Source: Pseudomonadota bacterium | GTDB lineage: Bacteria; Pseudomonadota; Alphaproteobacteria; Rhodospirillales; Magnetospirillaceae | Assembly (NCBI GenBank): GCA_021782815.1 | Contig: JAJXUO010000009.1 | Span: forward strand, 17,889-81,888 | Direction of reading: 5' to 3' | Length of the DNA stretch: 64,000 nucleotides | In this document: piece by piece, positions 24,417 through 41,649 of the stretch | How positions within the stretch are numbered: the stretch's first letter is position 1 | Layout: every line of letters begins with the position of its first letter | The notes under the pieces: generated by a model | Told to the model about the DNA's origin: nothing | Databases searched by the model: none | Seen by the model: the letters and a program-made list of their open reading frames with translations, nothing else | Position numbers and translations under genes: made by a program

Positions 24417-24791
24417 TCACTCCTGCCGGGGCAGGCGGTCGTGTTGCAGAATGTCGATGAAGGTCTGGATCGGACAGGGTTTGCGTAAGACCGCGGCGAA
24501 CCCCGCCTGCCGGGCCTCGTCGGCGATACTGTCCGGCGGTACGGCCGTCAGGGCGAAAATCCGCCCCTCCTCCATGAGCGGGCGGATTTTCCGGGCCACG
24601 TCCAGGCCGCTTTCCTGGGCCAGACGGATGTCGAGGAAAGCGATGTCGGGTTTGAACTGCCGGACGATCTCCTCGATGGCGGTCCCATCGTTTTCGCCGC
24701 GCACGTCGCATCCCAGGCTTTCCATCAACTGGACATGCAATTTCAGGGTCAGGGGATTGTCATCCACGATAAGAACGCGATGCAAGGGCAT
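24417..24791 (-). CDS. Single-domain response regulator (CheY-like)
   Basis: VLIVDDNP, IAFLDIRL, ALTA and RKP give the complete receiver signature. 124 aa. Confidence 0.9.
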   Translation of the reverse strand: MPLHRVLIVDDNPLTLKLHVQLMESLGCDVRGENDGTAIEEIVRQFKPDIAFLDIRLAQESGLDVARKIRPLMEEGRIFALTAVPPDSIADEARQAGFAAVLRKPCPIQTFIDILQHDRLPRQE

Positions 24792-24812: not shown

Positions 24813-26099
24813 TTAAAAAAGCTCAATGTCCGTATCGTCGTCGGGTTGCGGCGTTTCCTCCCGGGCCTGCCGCTGTTGCTGCCGTTTGGCCTCAAGCCGA
24901 TTGCGGCAGGCCTGCAGAACGGCATCCAGGCGGTTGCGGATGGCGGTATTGATATCCTCGAGCGACATCTCCTGGCGCGCGCTCATCTCGGCCACCGATT
25001 GATCGATGGCGGTGATGATGCCTTCGAAGTCCTCCACCATATCGCCCAGATGGTCCTTGATGGCATCCTGGAAATTAATCCCGGACATCATCTCCCGGAT
25101 CGGTTCGGCCAGCCGTTCGTTCTCCTCGGTCACTTTCAGCAGCGAGGTTTCCTCGTAGGCGATCAGATCGCGCAGATTGTCGGCCAGCCCGTTGACGGCG
25201 GAGGAAATGGCGGCGAACCCCTCCTCCTCCTTGCCGTTGCGGTCGAAGATGATGGCCTGCAAACTGGATGTCACCGCCGCTTCCAGCTTGGCGATGCCGT
25301 CGCCGATCTGCACGGCGGCCTGATCGGAGCGCTGCGACAGATCCTTCACCTCCGCGGCCACCACGGCGAAGCCGCGGCCCATCTCTCCGGCCCGCGCCGC
25401 CTCGATGGTGGCGTTCAAGGCCAGCATGCGCGTGCGGTGCGACAGGCTGCGCACGATCCCGACGATCTGCCCCAGATCGTTCACCAGCCGCCCGATATCC
25501 TCCGAGGCGGTTCGCACCCTTGCGGCATCCCGGGCGCGATTTTCCGAAAACGCATCGATCAGGGCGCGGCTGTCGGCCACCTGATCGTTGGCGGCGCTGA
25601 TGGTGTCCATGAAGTTCTGACGCGAGTTGGTGGTGAAATTCAGCACCCGCTCCATGCCGGTCTGCACCATGCACAACTGGCTCATCAGGCGTACGTCGTT
25701 GTCGCCGGTATCGCGCACCACCCCGGCCACTTCGGTGCGCAATTCCTCGGAAAATCCCCGGAACGAGGAGAGAATCTCGGCCACCGAGACCGACATGGCG
25801 AAAACCTGCTCCGACATGACGGCGCCGACGGGCGGCGACGGCGCAGCCATCGGGGGGGCTGCGGCGGCAAGGACGGAATCAGTCGGGAGGGGGGCGGTTT
25901 CCTGGCGGCGAATTAGAAAAAAAGCGGCCGGTGTGAAAAGGCAGAAAAATATAACAACTTGTATAAAAACGAAATAAACAACATTTAATCTAAAAATCTG
26001 GGCGCAAATAGCGTCTGAGCACAAAACTGATAGTATGGAAGCTGCGGTCATGAGGACGGATAATTTGATTTTACAATTTATCCGAGATGTGCAGTTCAT
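24813..26099 (-). CDS. Methyl-accepting chemotaxis protein-like transducer (short, no recognisable ligand domain)
   Basis: MCP signalling hairpin [33 protein letters not shown]. An N-terminal hydrophobic helix (VVYFVFIQVVIFFCLFTPAAFFLI) is encoded in AT-rich DNA. The start is uncertain (26099, 26051, or downstream ATGs at 25850/25817). Confidence 0.8.
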   Translation of the reverse strand: MNCTSRINCKIKLSVLMTAASILSVLCSDAICAQIFRLNVVYFVFIQVVIFFCLFTPAAFFLIRRQETAPLPTDSVLAAAAPPMAAPSPPVGAVMSEQVFAMSVSVAEILSSFRGFSEELRTEVAGVVRDTGDNDVRLMSQLCMVQTGMERVLNFTTNSRQNFMDTISAANDQVADSRALIDAFSENRARDAARVRTASEDIGRLVNDLGQIVGIVRSLSHRTRMLALNATIEAARAGEMGRGFAVVAAEVKDLSQRSDQAAVQIGDGIAKLEAAVTSSLQAIIFDRNGKEEEGFAAISSAVNGLADNLRDLIAYEETSLLKVTEENERLAEPIREMMSGINFQDAIKDHLGDMVEDFEGIITAIDQSVAEMSARQEMSLEDINTAIRNRLDAVLQACRNRLEAKRQQQRQAREETPQPDDDTDIELF

Positions 26100-26339
26100 A
26101 TGGAGCTCTCTTGCCGGGAATGTTTTTCATTCCGATCGGCACCTTGTTTGTTGCAAGAATTTTATATATTTTTTGTGGGTATACGGCAAGAAACATTGAG
26201 GGAGATCCTCTCTATCTTCCTAACGATGGCCCCCATTCCTTGGTTTTAAGGGCTCTTCCAAAGGGTGGAGGGTGAATTGCTTATTTTCAGGAATACGGCA
26301 CAATCCAGCGCAGCGCTGGTGAGTGGGACTTGGCCTCGC

Positions 26340-27284
26340 ATGGACGTCATCTATTTTTCCCTGGGCACGGAGTGGGCAACGGAAGATCCGCCGCTGGCCC
26401 CTTGCGCGCATTGCGCCCCCTCGCCGCTCGAACGGGTGGAAACGGCCTTGTGGCAGCATCTGGCGCCGTTCCGCCTGGAGGAATATGCCTATGTGGGCAA
26501 CGACCTGCTGCCGGTGGAGCGGGCGCTGTTCGGTTTTCCCGGCGGCTTGATGTGCGATGCCGATGACGCGGTGCCCGCCGCCTGGGTGTCGGCGCTGGCG
26601 GCTCAGGCCTTAGCGGCGCCGCCGCCCTTGCCGATCTTTCTCTATCTCAAGATTGCGGAACCGGTCGCGCGGGAGCAGACCCGCGCCTATGGCCTGATGC
26701 TGAGCGCGCATCTGGACCGGGTTCTGACCGGCTTTGTTCCGGCGCCCGACGGCGCCTGGTGCCGCTGGCGCTTTGTCCCGGACGGCGGCGCCATCGACGA
26801 GGGACCGGCCTCGCCGCGGGACCGCGACCGCTTGTTGCCGTGGGCGGCGTTGCGCGCCGGCATCGAGGGGGAGGACGCGCCGGATGCGGAGGGACGTTGG
26901 GCGCGGTTTCGCTTCGGGTTCGAGGATCGTCAGCTGGAATTTTCCGACCAGACGCGGCGCGACGCCTTCCTGAGCTGGACCGTGGCCGCCACCGACGCCC
27001 TGTTCCGCTCCCCGGCGCTGTCGCTCCCCGATCTGGTGCAACCGGCGAACGCGGCGGATGTCCGTCTGCCCGGCCGCTCCAAGGTGCGCCTGCCCGCTCC
27101 CCCCGATTGGGTCGAAGGCGATCCCTGGGATTTCAGCGGAGGCAAGGACGGCAAGGTGGGCGCCGAAGCCTACTGGGCCCATGTGCGCGGCCTGCTGGTG
27201 CGCAGTTGCGGCGCTCGCCTGCCCTGGTCGCCCGCCTTGCGCGGCGCCGTGTCGCGGCGGCGCGGCGAGGTGCCGCCGCGATGA
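26340..27284 (+). CDS. Hypothetical protein (314 aa), translationally coupled to the MipZ-like ATPase
   Basis: Strong G/C third-position bias from ATG 26340 onward. The 26265-26339 extension has weak bias. No domain recognised. The stop overlaps the next start (ATGA at 27281-27284). Confidence 0.6.
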   Translation: MDVIYFSLGTEWATEDPPLAPCAHCAPSPLERVETALWQHLAPFRLEEYAYVGNDLLPVERALFGFPGGLMCDADDAVPAAWVSALAAQALAAPPPLPIFLYLKIAEPVAREQTRAYGLMLSAHLDRVLTGFVPAPDGAWCRWRFVPDGGAIDEGPASPRDRDRLLPWAALRAGIEGEDAPDAEGRWARFRFGFEDRQLEFSDQTRRDAFLSWTVAATDALFRSPALSLPDLVQPANAADVRLPGRSKVRLPAPPDWVEGDPWDFSGGKDGKVGAEAYWAHVRGLLVRSCGARLPWSPALRGAVSRRRGEVPPR

Positions 27285-28150
27285 CGCCCCCCTCCTCCCG
27301 CAAACCTCTGCCGGCCCATGTGGTGGTGACCGGGAATGAGAAAGGCGGCTCGGGCAAGACCACCGTCGCCATGCATCTGGCCGTCGGGCTGTTGCATCTT
27401 GGCTTCCGGGTGGGCTGTATCGATCTCGATTCCCGCCAGCAATCCCTGGCCCGCTACATTCAGAACCGCCGGGATTGGATCGAAGAGCACCGCCTGCCCC
27501 TGGCCATGCCGGAGAGCGCGGTCATCACCGCCAGCGCCGCCGACTCGCGGCAAGACGCCGTCCGCGAGGAGCAGGAGGCCTTCGCCCAGGCCCTGGCCGG
27601 ATTTTCCCGAAGCTGCGATTTCGTCATTATCGACTGCCCCGGATCGGATTCACCGTTGGCGCGCACGGCGCATATGTTCGCCGATACCCTGATCACCCCC
27701 ATCAACGACAGCCTGCTGGACCTTGATTTGATTGCCCGTCTCGATCCGGTGGATTGGCAGTTGCGGGGGGCCGGCGTTTATTCCGATCTGGTATGGACGC
27801 TGCGCGGCAAGCGCCGCGCCGAGCGCCGCACCGGGATCGACTGGGTGGTGACCCGCAGTCGCGTCGGCGCCCTGGCCGACCGCAACAAGCAGAAAATGAC
27901 CGAGTCCTTAAATCGTATCCAGCAGGTGCTCGGGTTCCGCCTGGCCGAGGGATTCGGCGAGCGCATCATCTACCGCTACCTGTTTCTGTGGGGGCTGACG
28001 GTGCTTGATCTGCGCGGTGCCGGGCTGGATATCGAAATGACCCGTTCCCATCTGGCGGCGCGCCAGGAGGTTCTGGCCCTGATCCGCATGTTGTGGCTGC
28101 CCAATGTGGATGAACGGCTGGATCGTCTGCTGGCCGAGAACCCGCTCTGA
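27281..28150 (+). CDS. ParA-superfamily ATPase of the MipZ type
   Basis: ATG at 27281 gives 289 aa. Deviant Walker A VVVTGNEKGGSGKTT. IDLDSRQQSLARYIQNRRDW, IIDCPGSDS, TPINDSLLDLD and WVVTRSRV give a MipZ-like layout (recalled from Caulobacter MipZ). Confidence 0.85.
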   Translation: MTPPSSRKPLPAHVVVTGNEKGGSGKTTVAMHLAVGLLHLGFRVGCIDLDSRQQSLARYIQNRRDWIEEHRLPLAMPESAVITASAADSRQDAVREEQEAFAQALAGFSRSCDFVIIDCPGSDSPLARTAHMFADTLITPINDSLLDLDLIARLDPVDWQLRGAGVYSDLVWTLRGKRRAERRTGIDWVVTRSRVGALADRNKQKMTESLNRIQQVLGFRLAEGFGERIIYRYLFLWGLTVLDLRGAGLDIEMTRSHLAARQEVLALIRMLWLPNVDERLDRLLAENPL

Positions 28151-28167
28151 AATCCGGCCGGGCGGTA

Positions 28168-28644
28168 TCAGAACAGCACATCCTCCTCTTCGTCCGCCGT
28201 TTCGTCCGCCGCCTCGCCCTTCAGGGCGGCGCTCAGGCGCTTGCGCCAGGCCGCCAGGGTGACCGCCTCTTCCTGACGGCGGCACCATTCGGTCCAATCG
28301 GGCGGCGCGCTGCCGTCGTCGGCCAGGCCGCAGGTTTCGGCCACCTCGGCCTGCTGGCGCAACAGTTCACCGATGACGCTGGCGATCTGCTGCAATTCCT
28401 GGCGGCGCCGGTCCACGCTTTGCAGACGGACCACCAGTTGGGTGATGTCGCCCTGCAGGGTTTGATCGCCGCGCCGCCGGGCGTCCTCGGCCAGCCGCGA
28501 CAGCACGCCGGCGGCGCCGTCGGTGCTGTCCTCGAAAGCCAGCCCGGTGGCTTCCAGCTCGGCGGCCAGAAAAGTCAGCAGCCGTCGTTCGAACTGGGCG
28601 AAATCCCGCCAGCGTTGCACCGGCGGTTTGGTTTCGAGGCTCAT
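28168..28644 (-). CDS. Hypothetical protein, terminal gene of the che operon (158 aa)
   Basis: ATG at 28642-28644 overlaps the cheB stop (ATGA). Helical, with an acidic C-terminus ending EEEDVLF. No family recognised. Confidence 0.65.
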   Translation of the reverse strand: MSLETKPPVQRWRDFAQFERRLLTFLAAELEATGLAFEDSTDGAAGVLSRLAEDARRRGDQTLQGDITQLVVRLQSVDRRRQELQQIASVIGELLRQQAEVAETCGLADDGSAPPDWTEWCRRQEEAVTLAAWRKRLSAALKGEAADETADEEEDVLF

Positions 28645-29711
28645 GACGGCACTCCCTTGCGTCCCGGTTCGCTGCACAGGCGCAGGATTTCCGAGGGGAT
28701 CAGCGGTAGCGGCAATTCAAACTGAACGGCGCCCAGCTCTTTGGCGGCGCGCGGCATGCCGTAGACCACGCAGCTGGATTCGTCCTCGCCGATGGTGGCG
28801 GCGCCGGCCTGGCGCATGGACAACAGGCCCTGGGCGCCATCGCGCCCCATGCCGGTCAGGAGAACCCCCACGGCGGCGGCGCCGCACATCTCGGCCACCG
28901 AGGCGAACAGCACATCCACCGAGGGCCGATGGCCGCTGACCAGGGGGCCGTCATGCAGGCAGGTGACATAGCTGGCGCCCGAGCGCCGCACCGTCAGATG
29001 ACGGTCGCCGGGCGCGATATAGACATGGCCGAACATGATGGGCTGGTTGTCCTCGGCCTCGCACACCGAAACCGCCGCCATGCCGTCGAGGCGCTGGGCG
29101 AAGCTGGCGGTGAATTTCGGCGGCATGTGCTGGGTGACCACCACCGGCGGGCTATCGGCGGGCAGAACGGTAATGATGTCGCGCAGCGCCTCCACCCCGC
29201 CGGTGGAGGCGCCGATGGCCACCAGGCGGTTGTTGGTGCGGTAGACGTCGGCCACGCGGGTTTGCGGACGGGCGCGCTCGCCCAGGGCGCGCACCCGGGC
29301 GCGGGCGGCGCTTTTCACCATTTCCACCAGTTGCGGCCCCATTTCGGCCAACGTGCGGCTTTCACCGGCGGCGGGTTTACAGAAAACATCGACGGCGCCG
29401 AGTTCCAGGGCCCGCAGGGTCACATCGGCGCCGGTCAGGGTCAGGGTCGAGACCATGACCACCGGCATGGGATGCAGGCTCATCAGCCGTTCCAGAAAGG
29501 CGATGCCGTCCATGCGCGGCATTTCCACATCCAGGGTCAGGACGTCCGGATTGAGCGCCTTGATCTTTTCACGCGCCACATAAGGGTCGGGCGCCGTGCC
29601 CACCACCTCGAGGGCGGAGTCGGCGGCCAGCAGGGCCGAAATCATCTGCCGCATCAGCGCGGAATCGTCCACCACCAGGACGCGGATGCGGTTGGAGGGC
29701 GCCATGATCAT
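28641..29711 (-). CDS. cheB: Protein-glutamate methylesterase/glutaminase CheB
   Basis: REC (RVLVVDDSALMR...VLTLDVEMPRMDG) plus esterase domain (IGASTGGVEAL, HMPPKFT, GMGRDGA). Confidence 0.95.
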   Translation of the reverse strand: MIMAPSNRIRVLVVDDSALMRQMISALLAADSALEVVGTAPDPYVAREKIKALNPDVLTLDVEMPRMDGIAFLERLMSLHPMPVVMVSTLTLTGADVTLRALELGAVDVFCKPAAGESRTLAEMGPQLVEMVKSAARARVRALGERARPQTRVADVYRTNNRLVAIGASTGGVEALRDIITVLPADSPPVVVTQHMPPKFTASFAQRLDGMAAVSVCEAEDNQPIMFGHVYIAPGDRHLTVRRSGASYVTCLHDGPLVSGHRPSVDVLFASVAEMCGAAAVGVLLTGMGRDGAQGLLSMRQAGAATIGEDESSCVVYGMPRAAKELGAVQFELPLPLIPSEILRLCSEPGRKGVPS

Positions 29712-30346
29712 CCGAACAACTCGACTTCGCCTTCCACCGGCGTTTCCTGCAACTGCCGGCGGTAGCTGATTTCGCGGGAGAGAACGGCCTGCTCGATTCC
29801 CTTACGCAGGAACAGTCGCACCACCTTACCAGTTTGAGGAAAAAAGTGAATCCTTCGCGGATGGCGGCCGCCCAGATCCTCGGCCGCGATCGCCAGCTGC
29901 TCCTCGTCCAGGTAGCGGCGGACGAAATCGGCGTTGCGCTCGCCGATGGCCAGGGTACCGCCGCTGTCTCCCATGGAGGCGAGGACATTGGCGCCGCCGA
30001 ACACCTTGATCTCCAGACGGTCGCGCTGCCCGCCCCGGCGCAGGACGTCGTTCAGCAGCGCTTCCATGGCGTAATTGCCGTAGCGCCGCGACCGGGTCAC
30101 CGGTCGTCCTTCCTGTTCGTTGGATTCCGGCAGCATGAAATGATTCATGCCGCCGATGCGGACGACCGGATCCCACACGCAGGCGGCCACGCAGCTGCCC
30201 AGCACCGTCACCACCATTTCGTGGGGATCGCGCGAGACGTAATGTTCGCCGGGCAGCACCTTGACCGCCATCAGCTTGAAGGTGGGGTCGAACCAGCGGC
30301 GGCGGTTCTCCTCCGCTGCCGGCAGGCGGGCGGCGCAGCCGGTCAT
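29708..30346 (-). CDS. cheD: Chemoreceptor glutamine deamidase CheD
   Basis: ATG at 30344-30346 overlaps the cheR stop (ATGA). VTVLGSCVAACVWD and GGMNHFMLP motifs. The 544-aa ORF 29708..31342 is a read-through artefact. Confidence 0.9.
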   Translation of the reverse strand: MTGCAARLPAAEENRRRWFDPTFKLMAVKVLPGEHYVSRDPHEMVVTVLGSCVAACVWDPVVRIGGMNHFMLPESNEQEGRPVTRSRRYGNYAMEALLNDVLRRGGQRDRLEIKVFGGANVLASMGDSGGTLAIGERNADFVRRYLDEEQLAIAAEDLGGRHPRRIHFFPQTGKVVRLFLRKGIEQAVLSREISYRRQLQETPVEGEVELFG

Positions 30347-31182
30347 GGCAGCCGCCGGTAGGCGGTCTTGCCCGCCACGTCGAAGCGTTCGGAAACGCCG
30401 ATCAGGGATTCGGCATGGCCCAGGAACAGCAGGCCGCCCGGCCTCAGGCAGTTGGCGTAGCGGTCCACCAGGGCGCGCTGGGTCTTCTTGTCGAAATAGA
30501 TGGCGACGTTGCGGCAGAAAATGACGTCGAAGAGGCCTTTCATCGGCCAGGGTTCCAGCAGATTGAGACGGCGGAAACGGATGCATTCGCGCACCTCCTC
30601 GGCAATCTCGAGGTATCCCTCCTCGTCCTCGACGCCGAGGAAACGGCGGCGGTAGCCGGGAGGCAGACGCTGCGTCGATTGGGCGGAATAGCGGCCCCGG
30701 GCGGCGCGGTCCAAAACGCTGGTATCGATATCCGTGGCCAGAACCAGGGCGTCGCGGCGCTGCGCCGGCGAGAGCGTATCCACCAGGGTCATGGCGATGG
30801 AGTAAGGCTCCTCGCCCGTCGAACAGCCCGCCGACCAGATGCGCAGCCGTCCGGGTCCGCCCGGCCGGGCGGCCAGGCGCTTCAGTTCCCCGGTCAGCAG
30901 GGTGAAATGATGCGGTTCGCGGAAAAACTGGGTGATGTTGGTGGTGATGGCGTTGACCACATGCTCCAGTTCGGACTCCGGATCGGCCTCCAGCAGGGCG
31001 CAATAGTCCTTGAAGTCGTCGAGGCCCAGGGCCCGCAGCCGCTTGACCATGCGTCCGCGCACCATCTCGCGCTTGTTGTCCGGCAGAACGATGCCGGTAT
31101 GCGACGACAGGAAGGCGGAGAGAAATTTGAACTCCTTGCTCCGCAGCGCGAAAAGCTCGTCGTTCCCGTGGGGATGGGTCAT
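30343..31182 (-). CDS. cheR: Chemotaxis protein methyltransferase CheR
   Basis: IWSAGCSTGEEPYSIAM SAM-binding motif, FCRNVAIYFD. Confidence 0.95.
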   Translation of the reverse strand: MTHPHGNDELFALRSKEFKFLSAFLSSHTGIVLPDNKREMVRGRMVKRLRALGLDDFKDYCALLEADPESELEHVVNAITTNITQFFREPHHFTLLTGELKRLAARPGGPGRLRIWSAGCSTGEEPYSIAMTLVDTLSPAQRRDALVLATDIDTSVLDRAARGRYSAQSTQRLPPGYRRRFLGVEDEEGYLEIAEEVRECIRFRRLNLLEPWPMKGLFDVIFCRNVAIYFDKKTQRALVDRYANCLRPGGLLFLGHAESLIGVSERFDVAGKTAYRRLP

Positions 31183-31199
31183 GTTTTTCCGTGGATCCG

Positions 31200-31694
31200 T
31201 CAGGCGGCGTCCTGGGCCACGGTGTCGGCCAGCAGCAGCTTCTCCAGGTCGAGCAACGCCACCATGCGGCCCTCCATATTGACCAGCCCCGACAGGAATT
31301 GCGCGTCCTTGCGATGTTCGAATTCGGGCAGCGGCTGCACATCGGTGACCGCCACCGTCAGGATATCGGCCACCGCATCCACCAGGACCCCCATGATGCG
31401 TTCCTTCATGCTGACCACCATGATGACATGGTGCGCCGAAGGCTCGGTCATGGTGCCCGAAAAGCGCATGCGCAGATCGAACACCGGCACCACCGCGCCG
31501 CGCAGATTGATCACGCCGCGAATATGCCGGGGCACGTTGGGCAGCGGCGTGGCCGGTGTCCAGCCCTTGATCTCGCGGATCTCCATGATATCGACGCCAT
31601 ATTCCTCGGCGCCGATGGTGAAGGAGATGAACTGCCGCATCTCCTGTTCCCGGGAGTCCGTCGTTGCCGTTTCCATCGCCGTTTCGGATGTCAT
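31200..31694 (-). CDS. cheW: Chemotaxis coupling protein CheW
   Basis: FISFTIGAEEYGVDIMEIREIKGW...RGVINLRGAVVPVFDLR. Confidence 0.95.
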   Translation of the reverse strand: MTSETAMETATTDSREQEMRQFISFTIGAEEYGVDIMEIREIKGWTPATPLPNVPRHIRGVINLRGAVVPVFDLRMRFSGTMTEPSAHHVIMVVSMKERIMGVLVDAVADILTVAVTDVQPLPEFEHRKDAQFLSGLVNMEGRMVALLDLEKLLLADTVAQDAA

Positions 31695-31713
31695 GCCACA
31701 GTCCTCTCGTTTT

Positions 31714-33840
31714 TCACTCGGCCGCCAGGGGCGCGGTGCCGCCGCCGTCGCGGTCGCCCTCGGCTTTCAGCGCCCCCACATCCAAAATCAGGGCCACGCG
31801 GCCATCCCCCAGGATGGTCGCGGCGGAGACGCCGCGCACCGGGCGGAAGTTGGATTCCAAACTTTTGATCACCACCTGCTGCTGGCCCAGCAACTCGTCC
31901 ACCAGCAGGCCCACGCGGTCGCCGCCCTCGGTTTCCACCACCACCACCAGGCCCTTGGTGGGATCGGTGACGGCCCCTTCCACGTTGAACAGGCTATGCA
32001 GGGCCACCAGCCGGATATATTCGCCGCGCAAGGTCAGCATGTTGCCCACATTGACCAGGGCGTGGGTCTGTTCCGGCTTGGGGCGGATGCTTTCGACGAT
32101 ATTGGTCAGCGGCAGCACGTAGCGTTCGCCGCCTACCGCCACCAGCATGCCGTCCATCACCGCCAGGGTCAAAGGCAACGACATGATGAAGCGCGCCCCC
32201 ACACCGGGTTGGGACTGCACGCTGACGCGGCCGCCCACATCCTGGATGTTCTTGCGCACCACATCGAGGCCGACACCGCGTCCGGAAACGTCGGACACCG
32301 CGGCGGCGGTGGAAAAACCGGGCGCGAAGATCAGTTGATCGATCTGTTCGTCGCTCAAGGTTTGACCGCGCTCCACCAGCCCCTTTTCGATGGCTTTCTC
32401 CAGCACGCGGCGGCGGTCGATGCCGTGGCCGTCATCCTCGATCTGAATGATCACGCGGCCTGAACGGTGTTCGGCGCTGAGATGGATGGTGCCTTCCGCC
32501 GGTTTGCCCCGGGCCGCGCGTTCCTCGGGCGTTTCCAGCCCGTGATCGAGGGAGTTGCGGATCAGATGCACCATGGGATCGGACAATTGTTCGATCACGG
32601 TTTTGTCCACCTCGGTGCCCTCGCCGCTCATCACCAGACGCACCTGCTTGCCCAGACGCGCCGAGAGATCGCGGACGATCCGAGGCGCGCGCGAGAACAG
32701 CGTCTTGATGGGCTGGGCGCGGATGGCCATCACGCTTTCCTGCAACTCGCGGGTATGGTGCGACAGTTCCTGCAGGCCCATGAACAGTTCCGGGTGGCTT
32801 TCCGCCGAGAAGCGGTTGGATTGCTGCCCCAGCATGGCCTGGGTGATCACCAGTTCCCCCACCATGTTCACCAGCCGGTCCACCTTGTCCAGCTCCACGC
32901 GGATCGAGGCGGTATGCACGCCGCCGGCGCCGGGTTTGTCCTCGGCCCTGAGGCGCAGCCCGCCCTCGGCGGGATGGGCCGCATCGGCGGGATGATCGAG
33001 GGAGACGGGATGATCGTCGTGCGCGGGCGCTTCGGGCGGCGGCGCGGCTGGAGCATGCGCGACGGCGGCGGGCGGGGCCGCGGGTTCCAAGACCGTTTCC
33101 GCGCCGACGGCCTCCACCGAGACCTCGGCGCAGTCTCCGGCCACGAATTCGAAGACGTCCAGAACCGCCTGGCGCCCCTGCTCCGTGGTGATGCGGAAGC
33201 TCCATGCGAGATAGGCGTCCTGGGCCGCGAGATCCTCGAGGCGGGCCGGCAGTCGCGTCAGATCGGCGCGGATGTCCAAGGCGCCCAGGCCGGCCAGTTC
33301 CCGCACCATCATCAGGGGGTCGTTGCCGGTGCGCAGCATGTTGGCGGCGGGCGTGAACCGGACCAGGAAGCTTTCCTCGCCCGATTCCGGGGCCGGCGCC
33401 GGTGTGGCGCTCGCCGCCGCCTTGGCATCCGCGCCGCCCTGGCCGGTCAGGGCGTTCAGCACCTGGGTCACGCGGTCGCCGTGGTCGGGCGGCAACACCA
33501 CACCCTCCTGGGCGGCGCGGACGAAGTCGCCCAGAATGTCGTTGCCGCGCACCAAAACCTCGGCCAGGGCGGGCGTCAGCCCCACCCGGCCCGAGCGCAG
33601 GGCGTCGAGAGCGGTTTCGAAAACATGGGCGAAACGCACCAGATCGGTGAAGGCGAAAGCGCCGGCGCCGCCCTTGATGGAATGGACGCACCGGAACACG
33701 GCGTTGCAGTCTTCCGGATCGTCGCTGCCCTCCTGCAGGCGCAGCAGACATTCCTCCGCCGTGATCAGCAGTTCGGCGCATTCCTCGAAATAGGTCGTCT
33801 TGAAGCGCGACAGGTCGTTCGTCGAGGACTCTTCGGTCAT
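31714..33840 (-). CDS. cheA: Chemotaxis histidine kinase CheA
   Basis: ATG at 33838-33840 gives 708 aa. Hpt (FRCVHSIKGGAGAF), dimerisation, HATPase (DDGHGID, SGRGVGLDVV) and a C-terminal CheW-like domain. Confidence 0.95.
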   Translation of the reverse strand: MTEESSTNDLSRFKTTYFEECAELLITAEECLLRLQEGSDDPEDCNAVFRCVHSIKGGAGAFAFTDLVRFAHVFETALDALRSGRVGLTPALAEVLVRGNDILGDFVRAAQEGVVLPPDHGDRVTQVLNALTGQGGADAKAAASATPAPAPESGEESFLVRFTPAANMLRTGNDPLMMVRELAGLGALDIRADLTRLPARLEDLAAQDAYLAWSFRITTEQGRQAVLDVFEFVAGDCAEVSVEAVGAETVLEPAAPPAAVAHAPAAPPPEAPAHDDHPVSLDHPADAAHPAEGGLRLRAEDKPGAGGVHTASIRVELDKVDRLVNMVGELVITQAMLGQQSNRFSAESHPELFMGLQELSHHTRELQESVMAIRAQPIKTLFSRAPRIVRDLSARLGKQVRLVMSGEGTEVDKTVIEQLSDPMVHLIRNSLDHGLETPEERAARGKPAEGTIHLSAEHRSGRVIIQIEDDGHGIDRRRVLEKAIEKGLVERGQTLSDEQIDQLIFAPGFSTAAAVSDVSGRGVGLDVVRKNIQDVGGRVSVQSQPGVGARFIMSLPLTLAVMDGMLVAVGGERYVLPLTNIVESIRPKPEQTHALVNVGNMLTLRGEYIRLVALHSLFNVEGAVTDPTKGLVVVVETEGGDRVGLLVDELLGQQQVVIKSLESNFRPVRGVSAATILGDGRVALILDVGALKAEGDRDGGGTAPLAAE

Positions 33841-33895
33841 GCTCGCGGACTCCGCAGGATGGTGGTCGGCAGATGGCAGGGAGGCACCAGGGCCC

Positions 33896-34261
33896 TTACG
33901 GGCAGACCTTGGCCACCACCTGCAAAAGCTTTTCGGGCGAGAACGGTTTGACGATCCAACCAGTGGCCCCGGCGGCGCGTCCCTCATCCTTCTTGCTCTG
34001 ATCGGATTCGGTGGTGAGAACCAGGATGGGCGTGCCGGCGTGACCGGCGGTGGCGCGGATGCGGCGGGTCAGGGTCAGACCGTCCATCTGCGGCATATTG
34101 ACGTCGGTAATGACGCAATCCACCTTTTCGCGGCCCAGCATCGACAGTCCTTCGACGCCGTTCACGGCTTCCACCACCTTGTAACCGGCGCCGCGCAAGG
34201 TGAAGGCCACCATCTCGCGCATGGTCTTGGAATCGTCAACAGCCAGAATGCACTTGGTCAT
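33896..34261 (-). CDS. cheY: Chemotaxis response regulator CheY
   Basis: ATG at 34259-34261 gives 121 aa. ILAVDDSKTMR, VITDVNMPQMDG, LTTE, VKPF. Confidence 0.95.
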   Translation of the reverse strand: MTKCILAVDDSKTMREMVAFTLRGAGYKVVEAVNGVEGLSMLGREKVDCVITDVNMPQMDGLTLTRRIRATAGHAGTPILVLTTESDQSKKDEGRAAGATGWIVKPFSPEKLLQVVAKVCP

Positions 34262-34289
34262 CTTAAATCCTCGTTCTCTCACGCACCGC

Positions 34290-34580
34290 TCAGGCGGCGC
34301 ACATCTCGGTCAATTGCGGGTCCAGCCCCAGCACATGAAAGGCCTTGCACAGGGCTTCGGAGGGCGAGAGCAGCCGCAAGCGGCCGCCTTGGGACCGGCA
34401 GTCCGCCGCCGCCGTCAGGAGAACCTGCAGACAGGCGGTGGAAACCCGGTCGACGGCGTCGCCCTCAAGCCGCACCTCCCCGCCGCCCCCCTGCCCCAGC
34501 CGCTCCAGCAGGGCTTGCCGGAGCGGTTCGGCGGCCGACAGATCCAGGATTGCCGGCAGGCTCAGCGCGGTCTCGGTCAT
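34290..34580 (-). CDS. STAS domain protein (anti-sigma-antagonist fold) within the che operon
   Basis: 96 aa. LDLSAAEPLRQALLE...VRLEGDAVDRVSTACLQVLLTAA...LRLLSPSEALCKAFHVLGLD. Confidence 0.8.
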   Translation of the reverse strand: MTETALSLPAILDLSAAEPLRQALLERLGQGGGGEVRLEGDAVDRVSTACLQVLLTAAADCRSQGGRLRLLSPSEALCKAFHVLGLDPQLTEMCAA

Positions 34581-34605: not shown

Positions 34606-37209
34606 TCAGAACTCTTCCCAATCGTCTCCGGCGGCCTTCTTGGCCAGGGCCGGACGCTTGGCCGGAGCCGGCTTGCTCTCCTTGGCGGAATGCAGCTTGT
34701 TCAGATGTTCGTGAGCGATGGCGGCCTTGGCCGGAGTCCGCGCCGGAGGGGCGCGCCGGGTTTCCACGGCATGGGCGCTTTCAGGCGCCACGCGGACTTT
34801 ACCGGTCTGGAAGAAGCCCATCAGACGGTCCAGTTCCTGGGACTGATCCTCGAGGGCGCTGGCGGCGGCCGAGCTTTCCTCCACCAGGGCGGCGTTCTGC
34901 TGGGTCATTTCGTCCATCTGGGTGACGGCGGCGTTGACCTGCTCGATGCCGTCGGCCTGTTCCTGGCTGGCGGCGGCGATTTCGGCGACGATATCGGCCA
35001 CCCGCTTGACGCTGCCCAGGATGTCGTCGAGGGTGGTGCCGGCCTTTTTCACCAGATCGGCGCCGCCCTTCACCTCGGTGGTGGACTGGCCGATCAGCCC
35101 CTTGATCTCTTTGGAGGCCTGGGCCGAACGCTGCGCCAGGCTGCGCACCTCCTGGGCCACCACGGCGAAGCCCTTGCCGGCATCACCGGCGCGGGCCGCC
35201 TCGACGGCGGCATTCAACGCCAGCAGATTGGTCTGGAAGGCGATTTCGTCGATCATGCCCACGATGTCGCCGATGCGCTGCGACGAGGCCTCGATGCGGC
35301 CCATGGCGGCGATGGCGTCCGAGACCACCTGCCCGCCCGAGGCGGCGACGTCGCGCGCCCCCGAGGCCAGCTGATTGGCCTGCTGGGCGTTGGCGGCGTT
35401 CTGCTTGACGGTGGCCGACAGTTCCTCCATGGAGGCGGCGGTTTCCTCAAGGGCGCTGGCCTGCTGTTCCGAGCGCTGCGACAGATCGAGATTGCCGGTG
35501 GCGATCTCGCCGGTGGCGCTGTTGATGGAATTGGCCGCCGCCGTGATGGTGTCGACCATTTCGAACAGCTTGTCGATGGTTCCGTTCAAAGCGCTTTTGA
35601 TCTGGGTGAAGGTGCCTTCGTAGTCCTGGGTCATCTTCTTGGTCAGATCGCCGGCCGACACCGCCTTCAGCACGTCGACGCATTCGGTCATGCCGCGCTC
35701 GTTTTCCATGCGGTTACGCACCATCTCGCTGACGTCGGTGGCGTATTTCACCACCTTGAAGGGCTTGCCGTTGAGATCGAGGATGGGATTGTAGGAGGCC
35801 TGGATCCACACTTCGCGGCCGCCCTTGCCGATGCGCTTATATTCCGCCGCCTGGTATTCGCCCCGGTTGAGGGTGGCCCAGAACTGCTGGTAATCGGCGC
35901 TGGCGCGGAAGGCCGGGTCGACGAAAATGCTGTGATGCCGTCCCTTGACCTCGTCCAGAGTGTAGCCCAGGGCGTTGAGGAAGTTTGGATTGGCCTCGAT
36001 GATGGTGCCGTCCATGTTGAACGAGATCACCGCCTGCGACTTGTTGATGGCGTCGATCTGGCCGGCATAATCGGCGTTGCGCAGTTTCTGCTGGGTGACG
36101 TCGGTGGCGAACTTCACCACCTTGAAGGGCTTGCCGTTGAGATCGAGGATGGGATTGTAGGAGGCCTGGATCCACACTTCGCGGCCGCCCTTGCCGATGC
36201 GCTTATATTCCGCCGCCTGGTATTCGCCCCGGTTGAGGGCGGCCCAGAACTGCTGATAGTCGGGGCTATTGGCGTAGGCGGCCTCAACGAAGATGCTGTG
36301 ATGCTTACCCTTGACCTCGTCCAGGGTGTAGCCCAAAGCGTTGAGGAAGTTGGCATTGGCCTCGATGATGGAGCCGTCCATGTTGAACGAGATCACCGCC
36401 TGCGATTTGCCGATGGCCTCGATCTGGCCGACATAATCGGCGTTGCGGATTTTCTGGCTGGTGACGTCGGTGGCGAATTTCACCACTTTCACCGGCTTGC
36501 CGTTGGCGTCGAGGATGGGGTTGTAGGAGGCCTGGATCCACACCTCGCGGCCGCCCTTGCCGATGCGCTTATATTCCGCCGCCTGGAATTCGCCCCGGTT
36601 GAGGGCGGCCCAGAACTGCTGATAATCGGGGCTGCTGCGATAGGCGGCCTCAACGAAGATGCTGTGATGCTTGCCGCGGATCTCGTCCAGGCTATAGCCC
36701 AGAAGGTCGAGGAAATTCTGATTGGCCTCGACCACCGTGCCGTCCATGTTGAAGGTGATCATGGCCTGGGACTTGCTGATGGCCTTGATCTGCCCGGCAA
36801 AGTCGAACGCCTGCTGGCGCACCGAGGCGTCGCTCCATTCCACCAGGGTGCCGGTGCGGCGGCCTTGGCCGTCGAACAGGGGCGTGCTGGTCAGATCGAA
36901 CTGGCGCGATCCCACCGTGATGCTGCTCTGATGCGGCGCGGTCAGGCCGTCCAGCAGGCGCCGCTGATGGCCGGGCGTCTGGTGGAAGATGTCCATGCTT
37001 TCCCCAACCAGGCGCGCGGCGGAGAAATTGGGCAGATCCTTCTGCATGTCGCCTTCGGCGTCGCGGAGGAAAGCCTTCATGGCCGGATTGACGTAGACGA
37101 TCATATGGTCCGCATCCGCCAGCATGACGTTGGTGGTCACTTTATCGAGTGCATCCAGCTTGGCCAGATCAACGGCGCCGGGGCGGTTGGACGACAGGAA
37201 AGAAAACAT
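34606..37209 (-). CDS. Soluble methyl-accepting chemotaxis protein with four PAS-type modules (three near-identical)
   Basis: ATG at 37207-37209 gives 867 aa. No TM segment. Three 122-aa PAS/PAC repeats, the MCP signalling hairpin ([33 protein letters not shown]) and a C-terminal DWEEF pentapeptide. Confidence 0.9.
35731..36828. repeat. Three tandem copies of a 366-bp unit inside the PAS-MCP gene
   Basis: The period of 366 bp is confirmed by ATGCGCTTAT at 35831, 36197 and 36563. The tract 35747-35873 recurs without mismatch at 36113-36239. Confidence 0.9.
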
Positions 37210-37278
37210 GGCGAAACCTTTTCTGCTAGACGTTGGCGGTCTTGGCATTGGACTGGAAAATTAAAAAACACATGTGAG

Positions 37279-37749
37279 TCAGGCCGCTGTGGCGCCGACG
37301 CTGTGCGCCGCGGCAATACTTTGGGAATCGAACAGATCGTCCAGCCCCAACAGGGTGACCATGCGCCCCGTCGTGATGACGATCCCTTGGATGTAATGAT
37401 TTTGCCCGTGATCGACCTCGGGAACCGGGCGGATCTCATCGGGCTGCACCGTCAGGATATCCACCACGGCATCCACCAGAATACCCAGCAGCCGTCCATG
37501 CACAGCCATCACCACCACCACATGCCGGGGCGACGGTTCCGTCAGGATACCGGTAAAACGGGCGCGGAGATCAAAAACGGGAACAATGACGCCGCGCAGG
37601 TTAATCACGCCGCGCATGGAGGCTGGCATTTCCGGCAATTCCGTCACCATGGTCCATCCTTTGATTTCCCGGATGGCCATCACATCGAACCCGTATTCTT
37701 CGGCGCCGATCGTGAAGGTGATGAATTGACGCCCACTATTCGTGGTCAT
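37279..37749 (-). CDS. cheW: Chemotaxis coupling protein CheW (second copy)
   Basis: FITFTIGAEEYGFDVMAIREIKGW...RGVINLRGVIVPVFDLR. 156 aa. Confidence 0.9.
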   Translation of the reverse strand: MTTNSGRQFITFTIGAEEYGFDVMAIREIKGWTMVTELPEMPASMRGVINLRGVIVPVFDLRARFTGILTEPSPRHVVVVMAVHGRLLGILVDAVVDILTVQPDEIRPVPEVDHGQNHYIQGIVITTGRMVTLLGLDDLFDSQSIAAAHSVGATAA

Positions 37750-37936
37750 CGGTGGCTGTCCTTGTTCAGGCTCTTTTCACAAAAAATTTAGGGGATGGTA
37801 CCACCTTTCCGGGCGGATAGAAGGGGCGCGGGCCGAATTGCGGAGGGAAAATGGCGGTTTCATACAAAATATTTATAAGGAATCATCCTTTTGATGGAGC
37901 CCCTCTTGTTCCAAGTGAGGGGATGTTCTCTTTGGG

Positions 37937-39922: not shown

Positions 39923-40192
39923 GGGACTCCCCCTTTTTCTTCCTCCAGAAGATCGGTCCGGAACCGGGGTGCCGATGGTTTGCGCGGCACGCATTGGGTC
40001 GGAGTGTTGAAATTCTGAAGATGTATTTCCCTTAACACATTATGCGCGAAGGCGATGCTCAGCAAGACGTCGCGGATCGGGCCCGATTGGGCTGGCCCGA
40101 CGGAAGGGGCCTTGTTACAGTCGCCCTCTGCCCCGTAACGGCGCGCCCCTGCAGGCGCCCGGGACGGACCGTTTCGCAAGGATACTCAACGC

Positions 40193-41634: not shown

Positions 41635-41649
41635 GCCCAAGGATGTAAG

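What the first reader, a model, noticed from the sequence alone, without database searches (positions are those of the whole stretch)
26340..28150. Unknown 314-aa protein translationally coupled to a MipZ/ParA-type ATPase beside a che cluster with a soluble receptor
Seen:
- The 314-aa ORF has strong coding bias and no recognisable domain. It ends in an ATGA overlap with the start of a 289-aa ParA-superfamily ATPase.
- The ATPase has the deviant Walker A GNEKGGSGKTT and, overall, a MipZ-like sequence pattern.
- The pair converges on an 11-gene che cluster 17 nt away. That cluster's major receptor has four PAS modules and no TM segment.

Established knowledge: MipZ positions the division plane through ParB. 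Other ParA-like ATPases (ParC with ParP, PpfA with TlpT) position chemoreceptor arrays using a dedicated partner protein.

Inference: the upstream ORF may be a new partner or adaptor for this ATPase. Together they could form a positioning system for a cytoplasmic chemosensory array or another cargo.
Basis: partly seen in the sequence, partly recalled or inferred. Interest (0 to 1): 0.7.

Follow-up and report, generated by a model that had tools for sequence, protein, structure and literature searches.

The report
MipZ2-type ATPase operon with unknown partner
A two-gene operon pairs an accessory MipZ-type positioning ATPase (the MipZ2 clade) with a protein from a small family that has no known domain or fold match, and this ATPase clade repeatedly sits at the end of one type of chemotaxis gene cluster, which suggests an undescribed link between a cell-division-type ATPase and a chemosensory pathway.

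Summary
A 314-aa ORF (X, 26340-27284) overlaps by ATGA a 289-aa ATPase (27281-28150). The pair converges, 17 nt apart, on an 11-gene che cluster whose main receptor is soluble.

The ATPase is a full-length MipZ-family protein. It does not group with canonical Caulobacter MipZ. It groups (96% bootstrap) with MipZ2, the "accessory cell division ATPase" of Magnetospirillum gryphiswaldense, which is reported at the division site with little or no deletion phenotype.

X belongs to a small family (about 118 clusters) seen only in Magnetospirillum and relatives. It has no Pfam, NCBIfam or PDB match. Its AlphaFold model is confident (pLDDT 86) but has no fold match.

X overlaps mipZ2 in three lineages, lies 2-5 kb upstream in 11 Magnetospirillum-type loci, sits tail-to-tail in one, and is unlinked in Paramagnetospirillum and Phaeospirillum.

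MipZ2-type genes border the same che cluster type in many loci. In one related metagenomic contig the ATPase is the last co-directional gene of that cluster. About 28 loci with more distant MipZ genes have neither X nor che genes nearby.

Best reading (about 0.4): a MipZ-derived positioning module with a clade-specific partner, tied to this chemosensory pathway. No interaction is shown.

The parts
24417..24791 (-). Single-domain response regulator (124 aa), second gene of the divergent MCP-RR pair upstream of X
   Evidence: Pfam Response_reg, 5.4e-19. Conserved with the MCP in the sister lineage (80% identity in L008/L011).
24813..26099 (-). Membrane-anchored 428-aa MCP, transcribed divergently from X. 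Its C-terminus is ...DDDTDIELF.
   Evidence: Pfam MCPsignal, 1.1e-25. N-terminal hydrophobic segments, maximum hydropathy 2.45.
26100..26339 (.). 240-nt divergent intergenic region. It contains a block of about 110 nt (roughly 26197-26305) that is nearly identical in the sister lineage. Probably a promoter/operator region.
   Evidence: Alignment with L008 and L011. The block is far more conserved than synonymous sites in the flanking genes (pS about 0.40). No Rfam match and no unusual RNA stability (z = -0.29). No sigma-70-type consensus found.
26340..27284 (+). X: 314-aa cytoplasmic protein of a small clade-restricted family with no known domain. Candidate partner of the ATPase.
   Evidence: ORF and start. 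No Pfam, NCBIfam or PDB sequence match. The family has 118 clusters and 15 representatives at E<=1e-10 among 1.84 billion proteins. AF2 pLDDT 86.2, pTM 0.74. No fold match in PDB or BFVD. No TM segment. dN/dS 0.36.
27281..28150 (+). MipZ2-clade ParA/MinD-type ATPase (289 aa), translationally coupled to X through an ATGA overlap
   Evidence: PF09140 MipZ, 313 bits, profile positions 1-261 of 262. 63% identity to M. gryphiswaldense MipZ2. About 40% identity to Caulobacter MipZ, PDB 2xj4. NJ tree: 96% support for the clade with MipZ2. K13, G14, K18, D42 and W164 are retained. Carries the clade-specific C-terminal motif LWLPxVxxRLDRL.
28151..28167 (.). 17-nt spacer between the converging stop codons of the ATPase gene and U158
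   Evidence: Sequence. No terminator-like hairpin was called here.
28168..28644 (-). U158: 158-aa protein of unknown family, last gene of the che cluster. It travels with cheB next to mipZ2 in other lineages.
   Evidence: No Pfam or NCBIfam match. Homologues follow cheB in L008 (85%), L033/34 (53%) and L010/L021/L025/L038 (42-43%). Conserved DRxRQ motif and an acidic ...(D/E)xLF C-terminus.
28641..34580 (-). Core of the che cluster. In transcription order (high to low coordinates): STAS, CheY, CheA, CheW, CheR, CheD, CheB.
   Evidence: Pfam assignments and CheB. The same gene order occurs in L086, with CheB 60%, CheY 59%, CheD 50% and CheR 49% identity.
34606..37248 (-). Soluble 880-aa receptor: a PAS-like region, three PAS repeats, HAMP and an MCP signalling domain. 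It ends in DDWEEF.
   Evidence: Pfam. No TM segment. Three tandem PAS repeats at 151-270, 274-392 and 395-512.
37279..39994 (-). Second CheW (37279-37749) and a hemerythrin-MCP-PilZ receptor (37937-39994) at the head of the cluster
   Evidence: Pfam. The hemerythrin receptor has hydrophobic segments around residues 172-206.

Best explanation
**What it is.** X and the ATPase form a two-gene operon. It encodes a catalytically complete MipZ-family ParA/MinD-type ATPase of the accessory MipZ2 clade, plus a clade-restricted cytoplasmic protein made in fixed proportion with it.

**Shown.**
- The operon structure.
- The family and clade of the ATPase.
- Retention of the ATP-binding, dimerisation and hydrolysis residues and of the three DNA-binding residues found essential in Caulobacter MipZ.
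- The restricted distribution of X, its lack of any fold match, and its linkage to mipZ2.
- The repeated placement of MipZ2-type genes at the cheB end of one che cluster type.

**Inferred.**
- The ATPase cycles between monomer and ATP-bound dimer on the nucleoid, as MipZ and ParA do.
- X is its dedicated partner, either an adaptor or an ATPase regulator. Its conserved LAPFRLVEYxYVD and EFx6RDDFIxWS surfaces or its basic C-terminal tail may form the contact.
- The module organises in space the signalling complex built by the neighbouring che cluster, around the soluble PAS receptor. It would place or partition that complex at midcell or at division, functionally like PpfA-TlpT or ParC-ParP.
- This would fit the midcell localisation and the lack of a growth phenotype reported for MipZ2 in M. 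gryphiswaldense.
For: **Operon.**
- ATGA overlap.
- The same 4-nt overlap occurs in the lineage where X is 68-69% identical.
- A 19-nt overlap occurs in a third lineage where X is only 31% identical.
- No terminator lies between the genes.

**ATPase.**
- PF09140, 313 bits.
- Clade with MipZ2 at 96% bootstrap, separate from Caulobacter MipZ.
- K13, G14, K18, D42 and W164 are retained. R194, R198 and R221 are retained as R, K and R. Residue roles come from PMC7229837 and PMC9897490.

**X-mipZ2 linkage.**
- X lies 2-5 kb upstream on the same strand in 11 Magnetospirillum-type loci.
- X and mipZ2 are adjacent tail-to-tail in L036.
- Both families are of similar size and come from the same taxa.

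**che linkage.**
- U158-CheB-CheD-CheR converges on mipZ2 in the window, L008/L011/L037, L033/34, L010, L021, L025 and L038.
- CheW plus the PAS-MCP orthologue (86% identity in the signalling domain) lies downstream of mipZ2 in L039.
- In L086 a MipZ2-like ATPase is the last co-directional gene of STAS-CheY-CheA-CheW-MCP-CheR-CheD-CheB-RR. In L042 it follows CheD directly.
- None of about 28 loci with MipZ genes at 41-52% identity has X or che genes nearby.

**Other.**
- The receptor is soluble.
- General rule: ParA/MinD ATPases act with partner proteins (PMC11407121).
Against: - No physical interaction is shown.
- X has no CheW or MCP domain and no N-terminal basic peptide. Its N-terminus is predicted as a structured beta-strand.
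- X and mipZ2 are not co-transcribed in most Magnetospirillum genomes, where an opposite-strand HK-RR pair lies between them. They are unlinked in Paramagnetospirillum and Phaeospirillum.
- X's most constant neighbours there are livH and a response regulator, not mipZ2.
- One metagenomic X copy (L033) carries an in-frame TAG at codon 26.
- In the window the che cluster is convergent, so it is not co-transcribed with the pair.
- About half of the MipZ2-clade loci, including M. gryphiswaldense, have no che genes nearby.
- All loci come from related bacteria, so part of the synteny may be inherited rather than selected.
- The key FtsZ-contact tryptophan (W164) is conserved in 97 of 104 clade members. 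MipZ2 is reported at the division site. Both fit a division role just as well.
Confidence: 0.4

Rival explanations
1. An accessory cell-division module with no chemotaxis role. The ATPase does what its family does: it binds FtsZ and the nucleoid at the division site, as reported for MipZ2. X is a lineage-specific modulator or localisation factor for it. The che adjacency is inherited gene order.
For: - Full-length MipZ family match.
- The key FtsZ-contact residue W164 and the essential DNA-binding residues are conserved (PMC9897490 and PMC7229837).
- MipZ2 of M. gryphiswaldense localises to the division site with a minor effect on division (PMC7022226). NCBI names it 'accessory cell division ATPase MipZ2'.
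- M. gryphiswaldense and many other loci lack che genes beside mipZ2.
- One sister-clade locus lies about 3 kb from ftsK.
Against: - Other FtsZ-contact positions differ from Caulobacter MipZ: L161, K168 and R209 are replaced, L172 falls in a gap, and K208 is Q in this window but K/R in most of the clade. Two of three residues tied to ParB binding are also changed clade-wide: R219G and L248K/R.
- The che association recurs in different arrangements. These include co-directional placement inside the che operon (L086, L042), which is hard to explain by inheritance alone.
- More distant MipZ genes show no such neighbours.
Confidence: 0.28
2. X is not a functional partner of the ATPase. The overlap is a by-product of gene packing after a rearrangement that brought two neighbouring but independent genes together. 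X's real function lies elsewhere.
For: - In 20 or more loci X sits between livH and a response regulator. It stays there in Paramagnetospirillum and Phaeospirillum, where mipZ2 is elsewhere.
- X evolves about four times faster than the ATPase at non-synonymous sites.
- One X copy has an in-frame stop while the ATPase gene beside it is intact.
- MipZ2-like genes in L086 and L042 have no X.
Against: - Overlapping stop and start codons persist in three lineages over large X divergence, from 69% down to 31% identity.
- X stays within 5 kb of mipZ2 through at least three different local arrangements.
- Both genes co-occur in every lineage examined that has X.
Confidence: 0.2
3. The direction of control is reversed. 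The neighbouring che-like pathway is an 'alternative cellular function' pathway whose output acts on the MipZ2 module through a CheY-like regulator. It would tune cell division or cell length in response to signals.
For: - A single-domain response regulator with a sensor lies next to the module in three arrangements: RR-MCP divergent from X here, HK-RR between X and mipZ2 in Magnetospirillum, and RR directly upstream of the ATPase in L086.
- The cluster carries STAS and CheD, and one receptor has a PilZ domain.
- From memory, not checked here: the Azospirillum Che1 pathway affects cell length.
Against: - The response regulators are not orthologous between lineages: 25% identity between the window and M. 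gryphiswaldense.
- No known case of a CheY-type protein acting on a MipZ protein was found in the searched literature.
Confidence: 0.12

Closest known systems
MipZ2 of Magnetospirillum gryphiswaldense (accessory cell division ATPase; Toro-Nahuelpan et al. 2019, cited in PMC7022226 and PMC9897490)
   Same: - 63% identity over 94% of the length.
- Same clade in the tree, 96% support.
- Same clade-wide substitutions at the Caulobacter functional positions.
- Same C-terminal LWLPxVxxRLDRL motif.
- An X homologue (30% identity, E = 3e-23) lies 2.4 kb upstream in M. gryphiswaldense.
   Different: - Here X overlaps the ATPase gene in one operon. In M. gryphiswaldense an opposite-strand PAS-HK and RR pair lies between them.
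- Here the che cluster abuts the ATPase gene. In M. gryphiswaldense a TetR-family gene and unrelated genes follow.
- The papers that could be searched mention no partner protein for MipZ2.
Canonical MipZ-ParB division-site system of Caulobacter crescentus (PDB 2xj4, 2xit, 2xj9)
   Same: - Same Pfam family and fold-level match across residues 13-273.
- Same Walker A signature lysine, catalytic Asp and W164.
- The three essential DNA-binding positions are kept as R, K and R.
   Different: - About 40% identity, in a different well-supported clade.
- R219G, R242L, L248R and K197Q, and changes or a gap at L161, K168, L172, K208 and R209.
- The canonical partner ParB is encoded elsewhere. Here a dedicated unknown gene is translationally coupled.
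- Loci with MipZ genes at 41-52% identity, which include the relatives that cluster with Caulobacter MipZ in the tree, show no che or X neighbours.
PpfA-TlpT of Rhodobacter sphaeroides (partitioning of the cytoplasmic chemoreceptor cluster)
   Same: - A ParA/MinD-type ATPase encoded at a che cluster that contains a soluble receptor.
- Nucleoid-binding residues are retained.
- A deletion would not be expected to give a growth phenotype.
- The functional analogy is an inference.
   Different: - The ATPase here is MipZ-family, not a ParA/PpfA type.
- The candidate partner X has no MCP signalling domain, whereas TlpT is a receptor.
- In the window the genes are convergent with the che cluster rather than inside it.
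ParC-ParP of Vibrio (polar anchoring of chemotaxis arrays)
   Same: - ATPase plus a small dedicated partner encoded side by side next to che genes.
- The partner would link the ATPase to the array.
   Different: - ParP carries a CheW-like array-integration domain (PMC5706961). X has no CheW match.
- The gene order is reversed: here the candidate partner is upstream of the ATPase.
- The ATPase belongs to a different clade.
PomXYZ of Myxococcus xanthus and McdAB of carboxysomes (ParA-like ATPases with lineage-specific, fast-evolving partners)
   Same: - A ParA/MinD ATPase working with a partner that has no homologues outside a narrow group and evolves faster than the ATPase.
- Partner function would be ATPase stimulation and cargo linkage (PMC11407121).
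   Different: - No sequence or fold relation of X to these partners was found.
- X is a compact, confidently folded alpha/beta protein, not a disordered or coiled-coil protein.

Membership tests
MipZ family (Pfam PF09140) | Full-length match to the family profile above the curated cut-off | tested here: met
   313.3 bits against a cut-off of 20.7, residues 13-274 on profile positions 1-261 of 262. Matches PDB 2xj4 MipZ at E = 2.6e-62.
MipZ family (Pfam PF09140) | Deviant Walker A with signature lysine (K13), G14, K18 and catalytic D42 | tested here: met
   All four are present in the window protein and in 102-104 of 104 clade members. The motif is GNEKGGSGKTT.
MipZ family (Pfam PF09140) | FtsZ-specific site (helix H7 region) with W164 as the key determinant (PMC9897490) | tested here: inconclusive
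   W164 is conserved (97 of 104). L161 becomes D, K168 becomes G, L172 falls in a gap, and K208/R209 become Q/V. Binding itself cannot be tested here.
MipZ family (Pfam PF09140) | Non-specific DNA binding through R194, R196, K197, R198, R219, R221, L237, R242 and L248 (PMC7229837) | tested here: inconclusive
   The three residues found essential are kept as R, K and R. R196 becomes K and L237 is kept. K197Q, R219G, R242L and L248R are changed.
MipZ family (Pfam PF09140) | Recruitment by ParB and a bipolar gradient that restricts the Z ring to midcell | not testable with these tools
   Needs localisation and binding experiments. Two of three residues linked to ParB binding (R219, L248) are changed.
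MipZ2 clade (accessory MipZ of magnetospirilla) | Groups with M. gryphiswaldense MipZ2 to the exclusion of canonical MipZ | tested here: met
   NJ tree with 200 bootstraps: 96% for the clade with MipZ2, 100% for window + P0004 + P0005. Caulobacter MipZ falls in another clade. Identity is 62-67% to clade members and 57% or less to others.
MipZ2 clade (accessory MipZ of magnetospirilla) | Clade signature at the C-terminus (LWLPxVxxRLDRL) | tested here: met
   Present in the window protein. The strict pattern W[LIM]Px[VI]xxR[LI][DEG] matches 98 of 103 clade members. Sister-clade tails show the looser form WLPxVxxRL. It is absent from the three proteins on the canonical side.
MipZ2 clade (accessory MipZ of magnetospirilla) | A second, canonical MipZ1 is encoded in the same genome | not testable with these tools
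   Only a 64-kb window is available, and the MAG (GCA_027325525.1) could not be searched as a whole.
Chemosensory-array positioning systems (ParC-ParP, PpfA-TlpT) | ATPase gene located in or at a che cluster | tested here: met
   17 nt from the cluster here. The same holds in 7 other loci. Co-directional inside the cluster in L086 and L042.
Chemosensory-array positioning systems (ParC-ParP, PpfA-TlpT) | ATPase belongs to the ParC or PpfA lineage | tested here: not met
   The protein is a MipZ-family member by Pfam and by the tree. ParC and PpfA sequences were not compared directly.
Chemosensory-array positioning systems (ParC-ParP, PpfA-TlpT) | Partner carries a CheW-like or MCP signalling domain that inserts into the array | tested here: not met
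   X and 117 relatives have no CheW or MCPsignal match. No fold match to any PDB chain.
Chemosensory-array positioning systems (ParC-ParP, PpfA-TlpT) | Array number or position changes when the ATPase or partner is deleted | not testable with these tools
   Requires genetics and microscopy.
ParA/MinD partner proteins (ParB, MinE, McdB, PomX type) | Partner contacts the ATPase through an N-terminal region (many cases, PMC11407121); this region is often basic and flexible (from memory) | tested here: not met
   The N-terminus of X (MDVIYFSLG) has no basic residue and is modelled as a strand in the fold, with pLDDT about 91. A basic tail is at the C-terminus instead: 5 K/R in the last 20 residues. 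67 of 118 relatives have 4 or more.

The most novel reading that the evidence does not exclude
MipZ2-type ATPases would be a third, independently evolved ParA/MinD lineage dedicated to a chemosensory pathway, after ParC and PpfA. It would have been derived from a cell-division regulator. With X as a new-fold adaptor, it would use nucleoid and/or divisome binding to place or partition a cytoplasmic array built on the soluble PAS receptor. That would explain why deleting MipZ2 gave no obvious division phenotype.
Probability: 0.3. Interest if true: 0.8.

Novelty: new variant of a known kind. Interest (0 to 1): 0.58.

Why it matters
- MipZ2 has a reported location but no clear function (review PMC7022226).
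- This locus and its relatives offer two concrete leads that the searchable literature does not mention. One is a dedicated, co-translated candidate partner, which also exists in the genetically tractable M. gryphiswaldense. The other is a recurrent link to one particular che cluster with a soluble receptor.
- If the link is functional, it shows a division-type ATPase being re-used for a signalling complex.
- It would add a new adaptor fold to the ParA/MinD toolkit.
- It would also give a way to study how cytoplasmic chemoreceptor arrays are inherited outside Rhodobacter and Vibrio.
- If the link is not functional, X is still a testable modulator of an accessory division ATPase.

Tried and rejected
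1. **Heterocomplex model.** I built 23 genome-paired X-linker-MipZ2 fusions.
2. **Fold assignment of X.** Foldseek against PDB and BFVD gave only noise: best E 0.06-0.14, TM 0.2 or less, proteasome subunits and 'YubB ferredoxin-like' phage proteins. A profile search of PDB sequences gave one hit at E = 0.59. Scanning all 118 family members against Pfam and NCBIfam gave only scattered single hits, including one CheC hit at E = 0.017. I rejected all of these.
3. **First fused alignment.** X-only and MipZ-only rows misaligned, so I discarded it.
4. **U158 as a CheZ-like phosphatase.** There is a motif-level resemblance only (DRxRQ and an acidic tail ending in LF). There was no CheZ hit even at E up to 10. 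It remains an idea.
5. **Regulatory signals upstream of X.** No sigma-70-type consensus was found. A sigma-54-like GGCAC...TTG element seen by eye is not conserved in the sister lineage. I saw no CtrA box. The conserved leader has no Rfam match and no unusual folding energy.
6. **The original MipZ2 paper** (doi 10.1111/mmi.14369) is not held. Its findings are quoted second-hand from PMC7022226.
7. **Basic C-terminal tail of X** as a marker of linkage to mipZ2. There is a trend only, and it is not consistent.
8. **Whether this MAG also has a canonical mipZ1 or parB** could not be checked.
Full report
**Observation.** The ORF list and the raw sequence confirm the finding as written.
- X runs from an ATG at 26340 to a TGA at 27282-27284 and is 314 aa.
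- The ATPase runs from an ATG at 27281 to a TGA at 28148-28150 and is 289 aa. The two share ATGA.
- The next gene, on the other strand, has its stop codon at 28168-28170, which leaves 17 nt.
- The ATG at 26340 is the right start. Every homologue begins with the same D-V-I motif close to its N-terminus. The upstream in-frame GTG is not conserved in frame, because the closest relative has a 2-nt indel there.
- X is a real gene. GC at the third codon position (GC3) is 0.83. dN/dS is 0.36 against its 69%-identical orthologue, compared with 0.08 for the ATPase. Relatives at 28-31% identity give pairwise E-values of 3e-23 and 2e-26.
- Its 880-aa receptor has no hydrophobic segment. It has three tandem PAS repeats plus a divergent N-terminal PAS-like region, and a classic DDWEEF tail.

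**The ATPase.**
- It matches Pfam MipZ over the whole profile, at 313 bits against a cut-off of 20.7. It matches the Caulobacter MipZ crystal-structure sequences at E = 2.6e-62.
- Among 5.8 billion clustered proteins, about the first hundred hits are 60-92% identical. They come from Magnetospirillum, Paramagnetospirillum and related MAGs.
- One of these hits is the protein NCBI names [quoted passage not shown], at 63% identity. Identity to Caulobacter MipZ is about 40%.
- A neighbour-joining tree with 200 bootstraps gives three results.
  - The window protein, P0004 and P0005 form a 100% clade.
  - That clade is sister to the Magnetospirillum MipZ2 group, at 96%.
  - Both sit inside a 98% superclade that excludes Caulobacter MipZ and its closer relatives.
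- The superclade has its own C-terminal signature, LWLPxVxxRLDRL. The three proteins examined on the canonical side lack it.

I mapped the residues that were tested experimentally in Caulobacter MipZ (PMC7229837 and PMC9897490) onto the window protein.
- The nucleotide-cycle residues K13, G14, K18 and D42 are all kept.
- The key FtsZ-contact tryptophan W164 is kept.
- The three DNA-binding residues found essential are kept as R, K and R.
- K197, R219, R242 and L248, and several FtsZ-site residues, are replaced. Most of these replacements are clade-wide.
- The protein is therefore very likely an active, dimerising ATPase. It probably binds DNA. Its ParB and FtsZ contacts may differ from those of canonical MipZ.
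- According to a review (PMC7022226), M. gryphiswaldense MipZ1 is the canonical gradient-forming regulator. [quoted passage not shown] The original paper is not held.

**X.**
- A single-sequence search found only three proteins. A profile search found 118 clusters, all unnamed and without Pfam domains.
- An exhaustive HMMER scan of 1.84 billion representatives found 15 at E<=1e-10.
- All named sources are Magnetospirillum, Paramagnetospirillum, Phaeospirillum or unclassified or mis-binned MAGs.
- With the 118-sequence alignment, AlphaFold2 gives a confident compact alpha/beta model (pLDDT 86.2, pTM 0.74).
- Foldseek finds nothing in the PDB or in BFVD: best E 0.06-0.14, TM 0.2 or less.
- X has no TM segment and is acidic overall, with a net charge of -8.
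- The invariant positions cluster in LAPFRLVEYxYVD (residues 41-53) and EF...RDDFIxWS (residues 200-214).
- The last 20 residues are basic in the window protein and in 67 of 118 relatives.

**Is X tied to the ATPase?** I mapped X, mipZ2 and their neighbours in about 45 loci from genomes and metagenomes. Four arrangements exist.
1. X overlaps mipZ2. This occurs in the window, in the sister lineage (4-nt overlap; L001, L008, L009, L011, L037) and in a third, lower-GC lineage where X is only 31% identical (19-nt overlap; L033, L034).
2. livH<- X-> <-RR <-PAS-HK mipZ2->. This occurs in 11 Magnetospirillum-type loci, including M. gryphiswaldense.
3. X-> <-mipZ2 HK->, with a 3-nt gap, in L036.
4. 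Unlinked. In Paramagnetospirillum and Phaeospirillum, livH<- X-> <-RR stays together while HK<- mipZ2-> sits elsewhere. The distance is 76 kb in P. kuznetsovii.

The overlapping form occurs in the lineages that branch outside the Magnetospirillum group in the ATPase tree. An ancestral X-mipZ2 operon, later split by insertion of the HK-RR pair, is therefore the simplest history. This is good but not conclusive evidence for a functional pair. Co-transcription has been lost more than once, and one X copy carries an in-frame TAG at codon 26.

**The che link.**
- The orthologous tail of the che cluster (U158-CheB-CheD-CheR) converges on mipZ2 in the window, the sister lineage, the third lineage, and L010, L021, L025 and L038.
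- In L039 a CheW and the orthologue of the soluble PAS receptor (86% identity in the signalling domain) lie a few kb downstream of mipZ2.
- The most telling case is outside the MipZ2 clade proper but inside the superclade.
  - In L086 a MipZ-like ATPase (54% identity) is the last co-directional gene of STAS-CheY-CheA-CheW-NIT-MCP-CheR-CheD-CheB-RR.
  - This has the same gene order and orthologous proteins as the window cluster: CheB 60%, CheY 59%, MCP signalling domain 73.5%.
  - In L042 a 55%-identical MipZ-family gene follows CheD with a 19-nt gap.
- By contrast, none of about 28 metagenomic loci whose MipZ gene is 41-52% identical has X, U158 or che genes within reach. Many of those contigs are short.
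- About half of the MipZ2-clade loci, including M. gryphiswaldense, have no che genes nearby. One sister-clade locus (L043) lies near ftsK instead.

**Interpretation.**
- The layers that are shown:
  - a real two-gene operon;
  - an active-site-complete MipZ2-clade ATPase;
  - a clade-restricted partner candidate with no fold match;
  - a recurrent association of this ATPase clade with one che cluster class.
- The layers that are inferred:
  - X binds and regulates or localises the ATPase;
  - the cargo is the signalling complex of that cluster.
- ParA/MinD ATPases generally work with a partner that stimulates ATP hydrolysis and links them to cargo (PMC11407121).
- Soluble-receptor arrays are actively partitioned in Rhodobacter by PpfA-TlpT (from memory of the literature; named in PMC7229837).
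- The array model would also account for the midcell location of MipZ2 and the absence of a growth phenotype.
- I give this combined model about 0.4.
- The main rival (0.28) is a division-only accessory regulator with X as a modulator. The conserved W164 and the published localisation support it.
- A further 0.2 goes to X being functionally unrelated to the ATPase.
- About 0.12 goes to the reverse wiring, in which the che-like pathway controls the module.

**Comparison and novelty.**
- The ATPase is a member of a known, named clade (MipZ2), so it is not new in kind.
- It fails two defining features of ParC-ParP and PpfA-TlpT. The ATPase lineage is different, and X has no CheW or MCP domain. 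It should not be filed there, though it may work like them.
- New here are the operon with X, the existence and distribution of the X family, and the MipZ2-che association. None of these appears in the papers that could be searched.
- I rate it a new variant of a known kind, of moderate to good interest. It turns the open question of what MipZ2 does into specific experiments in an organism that can be manipulated genetically.

Noticed in passing
window 28168-28644 (-): U158 is the last gene of the che cluster and has no family match. It is conserved after cheB in four lineages. It has an invariant DRxRQ motif (the D-x3-Q spacing of the CheZ active site, recalled from memory), a WRxRL motif, and an acidic C-terminus ending in (D/E)xLF. 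It may be a divergent CheY-P phosphatase. No CheZ Pfam hit appeared even at E up to 10.
   Followed up: partly
window 26197-26305: A block of about 110 nt in the divergent MCP/X intergenic region is almost identical in the sister lineage (L008, L011), although synonymous sites in the flanking genes differ by about 40%. It is not coding in X's frame (a 2-nt indel). It has no Rfam match and its folding energy is ordinary (z = -0.29). It is probably a shared promoter/operator.
   Followed up: partly
L086 836-10864: A metagenomic contig (71% GC) carries a complete che operon: STAS-CheY-CheA-CheW-NIT-(NIT-MCP)-CheR-CheD-CheB-RR. A MipZ-family ATPase is its last co-directional gene, 64 nt after the RR. 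No X homologue is present.
   Followed up: partly
L042 1693-4069: A 55%-identical MipZ-family gene follows CheD with a 19-nt gap. Upstream lies a 310-aa Hpt+CheW protein that lacks the kinase domains (a truncated CheA?). A PemK-family toxin gene and a transposase gene are nearby, so the region looks rearranged.
   Followed up: partly
L033 8170-8172: The X homologue of the third lineage has an in-frame TAG at codon 26, after a conserved MDVIYIRLD start. The overlapping ATPase gene is intact. This could be a recent nonsense mutation, a strain variant or an assembly error.
   Followed up: no
window 24813-26099 (-) and 34606-37248 (-): The membrane MCP upstream of X ends in ...DDDTDIELF, which resembles the U158 tail. 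The soluble PAS receptor ends in the classic CheR/CheB tether DDWEEF. The two kinds of C-terminal tail in one locus may recruit different partners.
   Followed up: no
window 37937-39994 (-): A receptor that combines an N-terminal hemerythrin domain, TM segments, an MCP signalling domain and a C-terminal PilZ domain. It looks like an oxygen/iron- and c-di-GMP-responsive chemoreceptor at the head of the cluster. An RR-HD-GYP protein (22690-24207, +) lies nearby.
   Followed up: no
L007 6587-10834 and 20 or more related loci: In Magnetospirillum, Paramagnetospirillum and Phaeospirillum, X is always flanked by livH (divergent). In most loci it is also followed by a convergent single-domain response regulator that is 70-88% identical across species. 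The X-RR pair stays together even where the HK-mipZ2 pair has moved away.
   Followed up: partly
window 40408-42459 (-): A 683-aa ORF just beyond the che cluster has no Pfam match at E<=1e-4.
   Followed up: no
MipZ2-clade proteins, C-terminal 15 residues (window 28096-28147): The motif LWLPxVxxRLDRL lies beyond the Pfam MipZ domain. The strict pattern matches 98 of 103 MipZ2-clade proteins, and sister-clade members carry a looser form. The three proteins examined on the canonical side lack it. It is a candidate clade-specific interaction helix.
   Followed up: partly
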